This document shows, one piece after another, positions 37,298-40,382 of a stretch of DNA of 64,000 nucleotides (the stretch's first letter is position 1; every line of letters starts with the position of its first letter). The notes beneath the pieces were generated by a model, which saw nothing but the letters and a program-made list of their open reading frames with translations, was not told the origin of the DNA and did no database searches. Location of the stretch: NCBI GenBank assembly GCA_000165425.1, contig CT868241.1:62001-126000 (forward strand), read 5' to 3'. Position numbers and translations under genes: made by a program. This DNA comes from Paramecium tetraurelia (lineage: Eukaryota).

Positions 37298-37635
37298 CTG
37301 TATTGTACTATTTAAATTATTGAAACAAATGAAAAGAAATCAATTTGGATTTGAATCATTTTTTTATTGAATAATAATCGAACACATCATTCTTGTAATT
37401 TTGATTAAATGTTGAATTTATTTCACTGTTGATTTATTTTTATAAAAATTCCCTTAGAATGGATAAAAATTGATACATATCTTAATTAATACCTAAATAA
37501 TTAAGAATACTTAGAAATCAGAATTTTCGAAACATAAAATCAAAAATGTTTAATTAATGTGTAATAGTTGAAAATTTGTTAAATATATAAAAATCAAAGT
37601 AGTTCCATAAGTTGTATATTGCGAGTTAATTTTAC

Positions 37636-37899
37636 TCATCTGAGGTCGTCTTCATCAGTTTCTTCCTCGATAGATATTAAACTATCGTATTTGTTTTAGT
37701 TTTTCTTTTCGGATTGTCTAATCTTCCCAAGCTTTTATAGAATGAACTTGGAAATTTAGTCCAAATTCATCTCTACATCAGGATGTACATTCTAATTGAG
37801 GATGTACTCTTTCATATAGGTTTTCTCTTGATCACTGATGATTTGGAGATCACAAAAATTTTTGAGAGTTTAAAATGCCAATTTGTAATAGGTTTGCAT
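37636..37899 (-). CDS. Small hypothetical protein (87 aa)
   Basis: MQTYYKLAFQTLKNFCDLQIISDQEKTYMKEYIL...SIEEETDEDDLR*. Confidence 0.6.
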
Positions 37900-37956
37900 T
37901 TTTATAAAATGTATTTAATTTAATATATAAGTTAACCTCAAATAATCTTATTTAAA

Positions 37957-39693
37957 TCATAATGCATCAGATTGTTATATTACCTGAGCAGTAAATTAAA
38001 GATTCCCATATTAAATTTAAATTATGGTGTCTGATTTAATTTTGGAGCTTAATAAATCATGTTGACTAACCACGACATTGGGGAGTTAAAAGTGCACTTA
38101 AGTATGATGATACTATATATTACTTTAATTTTATTTACAATAATTCTTCAATTCATTGATACCAACAAATTGAGAACATCTAACACCGCTTTAATCTTTT
38201 TCGATGGAATAATATTTGACTTCCACAAAATATTCACAACTCAAAGCAATTAAGGTATTTAATATGATAAAATTACTTAGAAATATGTATGCAGGTATAA
38301 CAACATATGGTAATATAAATCCATGCTTTGAATACATTGGTTCAACTATATTTCCCCAATCTATTACTGTAATATCAAATAATACCATCCAAAGTCATGA
38401 TTTAAACAAGAGTGTAGAAGGAACCCCAAAAAGATGAAAAATACTCCTATTCTTTTAATCCAGTGTATGCATAATAATTCGATGTCAAAATGCTGGCAAT
38501 GAACATTATAATTCCAAAGAGTTCTGCAAATTATGGCATCAGCAAAGGTACCATGGCAATAGTTCCAACAAAAATACCTTTGACAGATGGTGTGGTGGCT
38601 ATCTTTAGTAAATTCAGTAAACAACCGATTTCAAGGAAAATAAATGAGCAAATTAGGGATAAAGGACTAAAGTGTAAGAACTATTTAGTTACCCAGCTAT
38701 GAAATGCAAAAACATCATTGTTTTGTTTTTCCTCTCTAAATCATAAATTGGTCCCTTCTTAAACATCAAAATTATAAAATGTATTGTATATATGCCATCA
38801 TCTATCAATTCTATTGCTAATTCAATTGTACTGTCGCCATGATCAAAGTGTTCAAGTATTGATATAAATATCCCACCAAAACTTATTATGAATACTATGT
38901 ATTGATAATAGTTGCCAATCATGCATTTATCAAATAAATTCTATTCCTTGACCAATTCAGATAATATTTATTGTTAATTGATTTCATAATTAAATGGATC
39001 ATCTAAATGATTACCTTTTTTCTCAAATTATAGTGTCTCTATCAATATACCCATCATTATATTTAAATAGAAATATGTCATAAGTAGAATATATATACAC
39101 AATATAAAATATCCAAATAAATCATCTGTTTCCCTTCCTATTTAACCCCAATCATCCAAACTCAGGGCCTAAACAAATGTAAGCACTGATCTCCCAAATG
39201 TGCCATAAAAGATTGCCACCTCATCATCATCAGAATCATCATAATAGGCAGTGGTGGAATAGGCACATACACATAAAACAAAAAACATAGTGATTGCCAA
39301 ATTTGTTATTTCAGACAAAACCAACTTAATTTCTCTTATCATTCTTTATGAAAAAGGGAATGTTAAAATATCAAGGCTCATAACTATTTAAGAAATCCCT
39401 AATAAATTGTACTCAACAAATATATTCGCAATGCTTAAGGTCAAAGCTAAAATTGTTAGCACTAACCCTAATAAATGCTTTCTGTTATTTATCAGCATCA
39501 ACATATAAATCCCAATAAAAAATATATTTTCCCCATAAAACGTGAAAAATGTACCAAGATAAAATACAATCATCAGTATTGCTTTGAATTTTTGACCAGC
39601 ATTCATTGGTTTCTATTTAATTTCCTCTTTAGGAGAATTTTGTGTTGAATCGTGTTAGACATCATATTCGGTCAACTCTGTTTCTAATTACAT
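37957..39693 (-). CDS. Two-repeat (2x6TM) cation channel with SLDDW/TLDDW filters
   Basis: Pore 1 FYGTFGRSVLTFVQALSLDDWGQI with S6 YLNIMMGILIE; pore 2 YFSSFWGSFYTLVQIMTLDDWGNIVEPM (after a 25-nt intron, 38361-38385) with S6 FIILNTLIALSCE; about 555-560 aa. Confidence 0.85.
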
Positions 39694-40382
39694 ATACTTT
39701 ATTTATTAAATCATTAATGCACTTTATATTATCTATATAATTAATTATTTAACAACAATAATATTATTAACAGAATCTTAACAAGACCACAGTGTATAAA
39801 TCCAGATATCCTTCCTTAATTTATAAGAAATATAAATTTTTCATAAAAAAAGGATAGAATTTTGAGGTATTAATTATTCAAATTTCTTATTCAAATTTCT
39901 TATTTATAAAAAAATCCCTTAATTGTTAGTAATAACAATAATGGATTCTAATGGCATTTTTTAATTCTAGATTGAAACACTTTATTATTTTCTTTATATA
40001 TTATATAATTATTTTTAGAAGTAATTCAACATTAACTGCATTGTACTACTCTTTAATTATGTTGAATTCTTAGGTCCATTATAAAAATACTTTATTGAAA
40101 ATGTCTTAATTTTTGGATTTTAATAATGCTTTATAAAAGGTATTCATTAAACTGATTTTATAGTAAAAGATTTTTATTTATCATTTCATTTCTATTTTTA
40201 GTATTTTTGATTATTTAGTTATTTTTATTTCGATATTTTTAATCCACCTTTTAATCATTCTAGTTTAAGTACATAGATATAATGTTAATGAATAGAGTGT
40301 AATATTTTAGTTTTTACTTATGTATTCAAATCTTTATTAAAAATTGATATCATTTAATTTATATATTTTTATATTAACAATT

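What the first reader, a model, noticed from the sequence alone, without database searches (positions are those of the whole stretch)
37957..39693. Compact two-repeat channel with CatSper/CavAb-type SLDDW and TLDDW calcium filters
Seen: one ORF of about 560 aa with two 6TM repeats. Filter I is QALSLDDWG (39148-39162), preceded by an acidic turret DDSDDDE. Filter II is QIMTLDDWG and appears only after splicing a 25-nt intron that splits the second Asp codon. Known: TLDDW is the Ca2+-selective filter of single-repeat CatSper1 and engineered CavAb, whereas typical two-repeat channels (TPCs) have neutral filters. Inference: a homodimer would present two rings of four Asp, making it a candidate non-TPC class of two-repeat Ca2+ channel and a possible intermediate between one-repeat and four-repeat channels.
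Basis: partly seen in the sequence, partly recalled or inferred. Interest (0 to 1): 0.82.

Follow-up and report, generated by a model that had tools for sequence, protein, structure and literature searches.

The report
Ciliate two-repeat channel, all-aspartate filters
A real, transcribed Paramecium gene encodes a small ion channel made of two linked repeats whose pores carry the aspartate motif that makes related channels calcium-selective; it belongs to an undescribed ciliate-only family, although two-repeat channels with acidic filters are already known from other protists.

Summary
On the minus strand (39693 to 37957, ciliate code) lies one gene with two 6TM Ion_trans repeats. Filter I is SLDDW at 39162-39148. 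Filter II is TLDDW, formed only after the 25-nt intron 38385-38361 is removed. A 1,712-nt transcript contig lacks both frame-shifting introns, and all five sister-species proteins read across both junctions.

The protein belongs to a very divergent family found so far only in ciliates: Paramecium, Pseudocohnilembus and Pseudomicrothorax. By sequence, both repeats are closest to bacterial-type one-repeat Nav/Cav channels, and no TPC chain was retrieved. By predicted fold, the protomer is closest to TPCs. Both S4 segments keep only one or two basic residues.

Per-repeat trees put both ciliate repeats together and outside the four-domain channels. That argues against the 'intermediate' reading, but AU tests do not reject it and a pore-only tree is unresolved. 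No TPC sequence could be brought in.

Two-repeat protist channels with acidic filters are not unique: TPCR and TPCL are published, and many turned up in my searches. Calcium permeation and dimerisation remain inferred.

The parts
38693..39693 (-). Exon 1: start ATG 39693-39691, N-terminus, repeat I (S1-S6), linker, S1-S3 of repeat II
   Evidence: Open frame under code 6. Transcript contigs end at 39692 (X4) and 39680 (X10), and raw-read depth is 0 from 39706 upward. 95% identical to P0002 over 333 aa.
38667..38692 (-). Intron 1, 26 nt, GTAAC...TTTAG, frame-shifting
   Evidence: Left out in X4 and X10 contigs. Motif scan. 5 of 5 relatives read across the junction.
38386..38666 (-). Exon 2: repeat II S3-S5, pore helix, T-L-D and first base of the second Asp codon
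38361..38385 (-). Intron 2, 25 nt, GTATT...AATAG; splits the second Asp codon of filter II
   Evidence: Left out in the X4 contig only (1 contig). 5 of 5 relatives read TLDDWGN. Retention gives a stop at 38377-38375.
38124..38360 (-). Exon 3 (552-aa form): rest of filter II (AT + TGG), P2 helix, S6 of repeat II, start of the C-terminal tail
38097..38138 (-). Two overlapping alternative third introns: 38138-38113 (26 nt, shifts the frame, 519 aa) and 38123-38097 (27 nt, in frame, 552 aa)
   Evidence: The 26-nt form is left out in the X4 contig. The 27-nt form is inferred from the ends of X10 contigs at 38096 and 38124, and from the gap-free match of the 552-aa product to P0002.
37957..38096 (-). 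Exon 4 (552-aa form): conserved C-terminal tail and TGA stop at 37959-37957; transcript runs on to about 37904
   Evidence: The tail motif is shared with P0004, P0005, P0008 and P0016 in alignment A2.
39148..39162 (-). Selectivity filter I, S-L-D-D-W
   Evidence: Invariant in 5 of 5 Paramecium proteins. Other ciliates have T-L-D-G-W here.
38356..38395 (-). Selectivity filter II, T-L-D-D-W, interrupted by intron 2
   Evidence: T[LQ]DDW in P0008, P0016, P0009, P0020 and P0026.
39220..39240 (-). Acidic turret DDSDDDE before pore helix I
   Evidence: Not conserved in P0004-P0006.
38923..39606 (-). Repeat I as a unit (residues 30-257); its S1-S4 part evolves fast
   Evidence: One-repeat profile hit at 9.2e-13. 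PDB hits are BacNav-type only, apart from three chance KCNE rows. 25% identity to repeat II over 158 aa, E 8e-7. S1-S4 is 38% invariant against 79-94% for the pore.

Best explanation
This is an expressed gene of a Paramecium aurelia-complex species. [quoted passage not shown] The family has been seen so far only in ciliates.

Shown: the gene structure, transcription as one mRNA, two Ion_trans repeats each with P1 and P2 pore helices, strictly conserved acidic filters, and conservation concentrated in both pore modules and in the second S1-S4 domain.

Inferred:
- Two subunits (a homodimer, or a heterodimer with the paralogue) build a pseudo-tetrameric pore like a TPC dimer. Four Asp would sit at the high-field-strength position and, in Paramecium, four more at the next position. 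Other ciliates would have two Asp and two Gly there.
- By analogy with CavAb, NaChBac mutants and CatSper1, this pore should prefer Ca2+.
- Each S4 keeps only one or two basic residues ([R/N/Q]xxK). In repeat II, His occupies the S2 and S3 positions that carry Glu and Asp in bacterial-type relatives. Gating is therefore probably not classical steep voltage gating. A ligand, pH or metal is a plausible trigger. The membrane the channel sits in is unknown.
- The two repeats most likely arose by a tandem duplication within this lineage from a BacNav/EukCat-like one-repeat stock. On that view the family is a parallel of TPCs and four-domain channels, not their ancestor.
For: Gene model and transcript.

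Relatives and range:
- The word-index search found 5 proteins at E<=0.001 among 1,522 candidates, all Paramecium.
- The exhaustive profile search of 1.84 billion representatives found 290 at E<=0.001, 26 at <=1e-10 and 2 at <=1e-30.
- The nearest non-Paramecium full or near-full proteins are from Pseudocohnilembus persalinus and Pseudomicrothorax dubius.
- A family HMM scores the 8 proteins it was built from at 371-888 bits, against 68-154 on a general one-repeat HMM. A high family score is therefore by construction for them. Among the other long proteins listed (492 aa and over), the order is reversed: 79-125 bits against 238-455.

Two repeats: Pfam Ion_trans on P0002 scores 64.3 bits (cut-off 25) in 2 stretches. 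One-repeat profile hits: RI 9.2e-13, RII 1.5e-24. RI against RII: 39 of 158 identical, E 8e-7.

Closest by sequence:
- The A1 profile against PDB gave 48 sequences at E<=1: 43 bacterial-type or single-domain channels and 5 chance ClpS rows, with no TPC, Cav, Nav or CatSper.
- RI alone gave 28 at E<=10: 25 such channels and 3 KCNE.
- For P0016, the best 60 of 125 were BacNav-type plus Cav3.
- The ESM Atlas's nearest clusters are bacterial Ion_trans proteins of 248-254 aa, score 0.90-0.91.

Fold: the AF2 model has pLDDT 68.9 overall and about 80-89 in the pores, with 12 TM helices and two pore helices per repeat.

Conservation, as invariant columns among 5 Paramecium proteins: RI pore parts 79-94%, RII S1-S4 81%, RII pore parts 78-93%, RI S1-S4 38%.

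S4 and His pattern.

Trees:
- Careful IQ-TREE, 71 repeat rows: the split of 7 ciliate rows from 64 others has support 99/95. The controls D1, D2, D3 and D4 are each recovered. The quick tree groups D1+D3 at 97 and D2+D4 at 95.
- The ciliate repeats also group together in a 90-row tree (95), and again when only P0016 and P0017 represent the family (96).

Filter chemistry: passages of PMC10120453, PMC4436565 and PMC6509283.
Against: - There are no functional data of any kind. Ca2+ selectivity, conduction, dimerisation, gating and location are all inferred.
- The predicted protomer is structurally closest to TPCs. Ranks 1-17 of the 50 entries listed are TPC1/2/3 chains at Z 22.3-25.6, and four-domain channels follow at Z<=18.3. 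Foldseek's top hit is human TPC2. Size matching and AF2's training on TPC structures may contribute to this.
- No TPC, TPCR, TPCL or CatSper sequence was in the trees, so descent from the TPC duplication is not excluded.
- AU tests do not reject RI+DI+DIII (lnL difference 24.3, p 0.105) or RII+DII+DIV (27.9, p 0.066).
- With pore columns only (122), no well-supported set joins RI and RII, and RII is not even one group.
- All ciliate branches are long, so their joining may be long-branch attraction, as the tool warned.
- The model is of middling confidence (pTM 0.45).
- Filter I differs between Paramecium (D-D) and other ciliates (D-G). The turret is not conserved.
- Expression in the two raw RNA runs is low, at about 1-10x.
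- The range may be understated. Ciliate genes called under the standard code break into fragments, and many hits are 57-160-aa pieces.
Confidence: 0.55

Rival explanations
1. It is a highly divergent member of the TPC/TPCR lineage. Its two repeats would descend from the same ancient duplication that gave TPC DI/DII (and DI/DIII against DII/DIV of four-domain channels). Fast ciliate evolution would have erased the sequence signal, and the filter would have become acidic secondarily, or stayed acidic as in TPCR.
For: - Same architecture: 2 x 6TM in one chain.
- Best structural matches are TPC protomers: ranks 1-17 of 50 entries listed, Z 22.3-25.6, against <=18.3 for four-domain halves. Foldseek's top hit is human TPC2.
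- As in TPCs, the two S1-S4 domains are unequal, and the second is the conserved one: 81% against 38% invariant. That VSD-II is the active sensor in TPC1 is my recollection.
- AU tests do not reject RI with DI/DIII (p 0.105) or RII with DII/DIV (p 0.066).
- TPCR channels with Cav-like filters are in print (PMC4278181, PMC12839299, passages).
Against: - No TPC chain appears in any of the three sequence searches of PDB, while bacterial-type channels reach 1.9e-8 (A1), 6.8e-6 (RI alone) and 1.6e-14 (P0016).
- The ML trees place both repeats together and outside the four-domain clade, with 99/95 support.
- RI and RII still recognise each other by BLASTP (E 8e-7). In other ciliates they share the S3 'GP' motif and the reduced S4.
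- The structural ranking may reflect chain length and AF2's training set.
Confidence: 0.25
2. It is a real channel-like protein, but not a Ca2+-selective channel. It could be a non-selective or monovalent cation (or proton) pathway, or a silent or modulatory subunit that works only together with its paralogue or another protein.
For: - Selectivity cannot be read from a motif alone. Passages of PMC6509283 report diatom EukCatA channels with TLDAWAD or TLE-WAD filters whose currents were unaffected by removing either Na+ or Ca2+.
- Filter I is D-G in other ciliates and D-D in Paramecium, so the second ring is not a fixed family feature.
- The voltage sensors are depleted of charge, and repeat I's sensor evolves fast.
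- Conserved His in S2 and S3 of repeat II could line a proton or metal site.
- Whole-genome-duplication paralogues exist (P0005, P0006).
Against: - Both pore modules are the most conserved parts: 78-94% invariant columns.
- The D-D motif is invariant in 5 of 5 Paramecium proteins.
- PMC10120453 (passages) states that an Asp after the high-field-strength site has so far always gone with Ca2+ selectivity in one-domain channels.
Confidence: 0.17
3. It is a decaying pseudogene or an annotation artefact.
For: Pfam on the unspliced exon pieces is weak: no Ion_trans on exon 1, and 16-17 bits on exons 2 and 3. Expression is low. One splice form truncates the tail.
Against: The spliced transcript contig has 0 other letters over 1,712 nt. 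The frame is intact at 552 codons with a single terminal TGA. Identity to relatives is 77-97%, with invariant pores. Homologues exist in two other ciliate classes.
Confidence: 0.03

Closest known systems
Two-pore channels (TPC1/2/3; e.g. PDB 8ouo, 5dqq, 6v1q, 6c96)
   Same: Two 6TM Ion_trans repeats in one chain of similar length. They are the best structural matches to the predicted protomer (Z 22.3-25.6). The two S1-S4 domains are unequal.
   Different: - No sequence match was retrieved at the thresholds used.
- The filters are acidic D-D, not the non-canonical TPC type (PMC4278181 passage; the residues are recalled).
- No EF-hands were found (Pfam).
- S4 of repeat II has one Lys, not several Arg.
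- The chain is much shorter: 552 aa.
TPCR (TPC-related channels of choanoflagellates, Capsaspora, Thecamonas; Rahman et al. 2014)
   Same: Protist two-domain channels whose filters resemble Cav filters, proposed as relics of the two-domain stage.
   Different: TPCR is reported from relatives of animals and fungi, not from ciliates (species list in the PMC8490419 legend). I could not read the original paper or obtain its sequences, so the relationship is untested.
Diatom TPCL (PMC11085791)
   Same: A divergent two-domain channel without EF-hands and with a conserved Asp in the filter.
   Different: It is a diatom lineage, vacuolar, and grouped by its authors with TPCs. No sequence comparison was made here.
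Bacterial one-repeat Nav/Cav channels (NavAb/CavAb, NavMs, NavAe; PDB 4ms2, 5hvx, 4lto and others; the pairing of codes with names is partly recalled)
   Same: They are the best sequence matches for both repeats. They share the FxxxTL[DE]xW filter with P1 and P2 helices. TLDDW is the core of the engineered Ca2+-selective CavAb filter TLDDWSD (PMC4436565, PMC10120453).
   Different: They have one repeat and form homotetramers. Their S4 carries four Arg, with acidic partners in S2 and S3. The ciliate protein has two fused, unequal repeats and charge-poor sensors.
EukCat one-repeat channels and other protist two-repeat channels found here (e.g. P0045, P0048, P0050, P0034 from a dinoflagellate)
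   Same: Eukaryotic descendants of the same stock with acidic filters. P0045 and P0048 have D-D in both repeats. In several of them RI is sister to RII, which points to repeated tandem duplications.
   Different: They score 316-455 bits on the general one-repeat profile, against 104-116 for the Paramecium proteins. They keep RxxR S4 segments. None is from a ciliate.
CatSper1-4
   Same: An Asp-based [T/S]xDxW-type filter. CatSper1 has Asp at both positions according to PMC10120453. CatSper is only weakly voltage dependent (PMC6509283 passage).
   Different: CatSper subunits have one repeat and form a heterotetramer with many auxiliary subunits. No CatSper chain was retrieved, and none was in the trees.

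Membership tests
Pfam Ion_trans (PF00520), voltage-gated ion channel superfamily | Score above the curated cut-off; 6TM unit with a pore loop | tested here: met
   P0002 (97% identical to the window's 552-aa product): 64.3 bits against a cut-off of 25, in 2 stretches. The window's unspliced exon pieces alone score below the cut-off. AF2 shows 12 TM helices plus P1 and P2 helices in each repeat.
Two-pore channels (TPC) | Two 6TM repeats in one polypeptide | tested here: met
Two-pore channels (TPC) | Protomer fold like solved TPCs | tested here: met
   VIA-align: ranks 1-17 of 50 listed entries are TPCs, Z 22.3-25.6. Model confidence is middling (pLDDT 68.9, pTM 0.45).
Two-pore channels (TPC) | Sequence closer to TPCs than to other channel families | tested here: not met
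   No TPC among 48 sequences (A1 profile, E<=1), 28 sequences (RI, E<=10) or the best 60 of 125 (P0016). Bacterial-type channels lead all three lists.
Two-pore channels (TPC) | Repeats cluster with TPC DI and DII in a per-repeat tree | not tested
   No TPC, TPCR or TPCL sequence could be obtained. None was named among the hits.
Two-pore channels (TPC) | Non-canonical, largely uncharged filter | tested here: not met
   The filters here are SLDDW and TLDDW. The TPC filter type comes from the PMC4278181 passage and from recollection.
Two-pore channels (TPC) | Assembles as a dimer | not tested
   The dimer job could never be queued (see Tried and rejected).
Two-domain intermediate of four-domain Cav/Nav channels | RI groups with DI/DIII and RII with DII/DIV | tested here: inconclusive
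   The ML trees say no: the 7 ciliate rows are split from all others at 99/95, and the four-domain controls are recovered. The AU tests do not reject the pairing (p 0.105 and 0.066), and the pore-only tree is unresolved.
BacNav/EukCat one-repeat channels | Single 6TM repeat per chain | tested here: not met
   Two repeats on one transcript
BacNav/EukCat one-repeat channels | FxxxT[LF][DE]xW filter between P1 and P2 helices | tested here: met
BacNav/EukCat one-repeat channels | S4 with a run of Arg at every third position | tested here: not met
   Only [R/N/Q]xxK remains in both repeats across the family.
CatSper | One-repeat subunits; sequence kinship to CatSper1-4 | tested here: not met
   There are two repeats, and no CatSper chain appears. 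No tree with CatSper was built.
Four-domain Cav/Nav/NALCN | Four repeats in one chain | tested here: not met
   There are two repeats, and the CDS ends at 37957 with the transcript ending near 37904.

The most novel reading that the evidence does not exclude
Ciliates independently fused two BacNav/EukCat-like repeats into a compact channel. On this reading it is a natural counterpart of the engineered CavAb pore: TLDDW, with eight Asp per dimer in Paramecium. Its voltage sensors would have been repurposed, with charge-poor S4 segments and conserved His in place of the S2 and S3 acidic partners in repeat II. The result would be a Ca2+ channel gated by pH, metal or ligand. It would also be a further, separate origin of pseudo-tetrameric architecture beside TPCs and four-domain channels.
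Probability: 0.3. Interest if true: 0.7.

Novelty: new variant of a known kind. Interest (0 to 1): 0.5.

Why it matters
Paramecium is the classic excitable cell. Its ciliary four-domain Cav channels and its IP3R/RyR-type release channels have been studied, yet several of its Ca2+ pathways have no molecular identity. For example, store-operated entry was reported as unassigned in PMC3194816.

A compact, uncharacterised channel with a filter predicted to select Ca2+ is a concrete candidate that RNAi and GFP tagging can test. For channel biophysics it offers a natural two-fold-symmetric version of the CavAb filter, with a built-in comparison between D-D/D-D in Paramecium and D-G/D-D in other ciliates.

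For evolution, this family and the many other two-repeat protist channels seen here suggest that tandem duplication of one-repeat channels happened repeatedly. That would temper the use of any single two-repeat family as 'the' intermediate on the way to four-domain channels.

Tried and rejected
- Pfam on the three unspliced exon pieces gave only sub-threshold Ion_trans on exons 2 and 3, and none on exon 1. The full-length relative passes.
- The look-up of sequencing runs listed no holder on record as RNA. I laid X21, X22, X4 and X10. The raw reads (58 nt) gave depth and strand but no listed joints, so splicing rests on contigs.
- The window's own genome is not held. I therefore made no census of paralogues, Cav or TPC genes. 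tblastn of P0002, P0016 and P0039 on the window found only this locus.
- A second word-index search with the ciliate alignment A2 added only short fragments.
- The third search, with other two-repeat channels (A4), brought four-domain Cav/Nav references but nothing named TPC. P0218 (EF-hand plus Ion_trans) proved to be a one-repeat protein.
- The dimer prediction (two copies of residues 28-500 with alignment A3) was never accepted. The queue was full, or the machine gave no answer, at every attempt. There is no result of any kind.
- The search of earlier findings by place, sequence and words returned nothing.
- Literature: searches turned up no description of a ciliate two-repeat channel with D-D filters, either in the listings or in the passages I read. 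Rahman et al. 2014 is not held, nor are Plattner's reviews. Whether ciliate sequences were considered there is unknown. I opened no supplementary files.
- The Foldseek E-value ranking mixes TPC, Nav, Cav and NALCN at TM 0.38-0.48 and does not discriminate.
- The pore-only tree (122 columns) lost resolution.
- I considered the in-frame 21- or 30-nt GTA...TAG stretches at 38831-38811 and 38831-38802, and the 29-nt one at 39412-39384, as possible introns. I rejected them because the X4 and X10 contigs keep them and the relatives' proteins include them.
Full report
1. WHAT IS IN THE SEQUENCE

The window is AT-rich (22-32% G+C in 2-kb windows). The region reads as a gene only on the minus strand and only under the ciliate code. 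The modelled 552-codon CDS has 18 TAA and 4 TAG in-frame codons and a single terminal TGA.

It also found a third candidate at 38138-38113.

Filter I (S-L-D-D-W) lies at 39162-39148 and the acidic turret DDSDDDE at 39240-39220. Filter II is T-L-D at 38395-38387. The second Asp codon is split by the 25-nt intron, and Trp follows at 38358-38356. If the intron is retained, the frame ends at 38377-38375.

2. IS IT SPLICED AND TRANSCRIBED AS ONE GENE?

I laid four runs on 37600-40000.

- One X4 contig (1,712 nt, 37904-39692, no mismatches) lacks exactly 26, 25 and 26 nt at 38667, 38361 and 38113.
- One X10 contig lacks the 26 nt at 38667. X10 has no contig across intron 2.
- The tool labels these runs 'RNA?' as a guess. 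The exact removal of three introns is what makes me read them as cDNA-derived.
- Two oligo-dT RNA runs of raw 58-nt reads cover the gene at about 1-10x, with the first mate almost all on + (that is, RNA of the minus strand). Depth is zero above 39705, so the ATG at 39693 is the likely start. These reads listed no joints.

Independently, all five annotated Paramecium relatives (P. octaurelia, P. primaurelia x2, P. sonneborni, P. octaurelia paralogue) read straight across both junctions.

So both repeats sit on one message, and intron 2 is removed in the one transcript contig that spans it.

3. CORRECTION: THE C-TERMINAL TAIL

X4 removes 38138-38113. That shifts the frame and gives 519 aa, the length of P0003.

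Three X10 contigs behave differently. One ends at 38096. One starts at 38124 with seven unplaced letters. One starts at 38139. This pattern is what competing splice forms would produce. It fits an overlapping 27-nt in-frame intron at 38123-38097.

That form gives 552 aa, which is 533 of 552 identical to P0002 with no gap. It keeps a tail motif shared with P0004, P0005, P0008 and P0016. The 27-nt form is an inference.

4. THE FAMILY

- The word-index search found only 5 proteins, all Paramecium.
- The exhaustive profile search of 1.84 billion representatives found 290 at E<=0.001, but only 2 at E<=1e-30.
- The nearest others are a Pseudocohnilembus persalinus hypothetical protein, a Pseudomicrothorax dubius transcript ORF, and short unnamed fragments. 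The fragments may be ciliate genes broken by calling under the standard code.
- A family HMM separates its 8 seed members (371-888 bits, by construction) from the other long proteins listed (79-125 bits). A general one-repeat HMM gives the reverse order.
- Other ciliates have T-L-D-G-W in filter I and T-[LQ]-D-D-W in filter II. The second Asp of filter I is therefore a Paramecium feature.
- Among the 5 Paramecium proteins, both pore modules and the second S1-S4 domain are 78-94% invariant. The first S1-S4 domain is 38% invariant, the turret 29% and the tail 14%.

5. WHAT IT RESEMBLES

By sequence:
- Pfam sees two Ion_trans stretches. A one-repeat profile hits RI at 9.2e-13 and RII at 1.5e-24. 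RI and RII align at 25% identity over 158 residues, E 8e-7.
- Among solved structures, the family profile, repeat I alone and P0016 all hit bacterial-type one-repeat Nav/Cav channels first. P0016 also hits Cav3. No TPC chain is listed.
- The ESM Atlas's nearest clusters are bacterial Ion_trans proteins of about 250 aa.

By predicted fold the picture differs:
- The AF2 model (pLDDT 68.9, pTM 0.45) has 12 TM helices and two pore helices per repeat.
- VIA-align ranks 17 TPC entries first (Z 22.3-25.6), ahead of four-domain channels (Z<=18.3).
- Foldseek's E-values mix these classes.

So it looks like a TPC protomer but reads like a BacNav-type channel.

6. VOLTAGE SENSORS

In the profile alignment, the S4 segments of the family keep only [R/N/Q]xxK where bacterial-type and other protist relatives have RxxRxxRxxR.

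In repeat II, the S2 Glu and S3 Asp positions of those relatives are His. The S2 motif TxH is present in 4 of 5 sequences covering it, and the S3 motif LHxx[SA]GP in 6 of 6.

That these positions are the gating-charge partners is my recollection, not a result.

7. PER-REPEAT TREES

From 141 repeats extracted, I first used 90: all 14 ciliate repeats, all 42 from other two-repeat proteins, and 34 of 52 small one-repeat proteins. The ciliate RI and RII grouped together (SH-aLRT 95). They also grouped when only P0016 and P0017 represented the family (96).

After supplied four-domain references, I built a 71-row set:
- 7 ciliate repeats, from P0002, P0005, P0016 and P0017. P0003, P0004, P0006 and P0008 were left out.
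- 24 repeats of 12 other two-repeat proteins.
- 20 one-repeat proteins.
- 20 repeats of five four-domain channels.

The careful tree recovers D1, D2, D3 and D4, and splits the 7 ciliate rows from the other 64 at 99/95. The quick tree also groups D1+D3 and D2+D4.

Results against a firm conclusion:
- AU tests do not reject RI+D1+D3 (p 0.105) or RII+D2+D4 (p 0.066).
- A pore-only tree is unresolved.
- All ciliate branches are long.
- No TPC, TPCR, TPCL or CatSper sequences were available.

In the same trees, several other two-repeat lineages have RI sister to RII (P0048, P0050, P0108, P0045). That suggests repeated tandem duplications.

8. MECHANISM

Most likely (about 0.55), two subunits form a pseudo-tetrameric pore with Asp rings at the high-field-strength position and the next one.

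The passages I read say that Asp at the second position confers Ca2+ selectivity in NavAb and NaChBac mutants and in CatSper1, and that Gly there with an acidic first position also does (PMC10120453, PMC4436565, PMC6509283). Ca2+ preference is therefore a reasoned inference, not a result.

Gating is probably not steeply voltage dependent. The conserved, His-bearing second sensor suggests pH, metal or ligand control. The channel's location is unknown.

9. COMPARISON AND NOVELTY

I saw that work only through PMC4278181, PMC8490419 and PMC12839299. Diatom TPCL has an acidic filter residue (PMC11085791).

My searches also show 21 non-ciliate two-repeat proteins with acidic filters.

What appears new:
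- This particular ciliate-only family, which eight literature searches did not find described.
- Its natural TLDDW filter.
- Its charge-poor, His-bearing sensors.

I rate it a new variant of a known kind, with interest 0.5.

Noticed in passing
window 38097-38138 (minus strand): Two overlapping alternative introns in the C-terminal tail. The 26-nt one shifts the frame and gives a 519-aa product with a 3' UTR of about 150 nt. The 27-nt one ends in AAG, not TAG, and is in frame, giving 552 aa with the conserved tail. Sister-species annotations disagree in the same way: 519/524 aa against 546-553 aa.
   Followed up: partly
window 37600-37899 (minus strand): A small gene directly downstream (ATG at 37899-37897) is covered 20-69x in the two raw RNA runs, against 1-10x for the channel. 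The channel's transcript contig ends at 37904, only a few bases before that ATG.
   Followed up: no
window 37853: C>T in RNA reads: 3 of 5 reads in X21 and 4 of 16 in X22. This could be an allele, a strain difference or editing. No DNA run of the same strain was laid.
   Followed up: no
proteins P0022-P0058, P0070, P0108, P0129, P0152: There is a large, mostly unnamed set of two-repeat protist channels with BacNav-like acidic filters and full RxxR S4 segments. P0034 is from a dinoflagellate; the rest are from marine metatranscriptomes. P0045 and P0048 have D-D in both repeats, and P0048 also has EF-hands. In several, RI is sister to RII, which suggests repeated independent duplications.
   Followed up: partly
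repeat II S2 and S3; window about 38780-38790 and 38700-38712 (minus strand), and P0002 residues 305 and 330: Conserved His residues occupy the positions where bacterial-type relatives carry the S2 Glu and S3 Asp. They are followed by an [SA]GP motif in S3. In non-Paramecium ciliates, repeat I also has the S3 GP motif.
   Followed up: partly
window 39714-39712: An in-frame ATG lies seven codons upstream of the start. Some sister-species models begin there (MF.QIKY...). No read or contig reaches it in this window's runs.
   Followed up: partly
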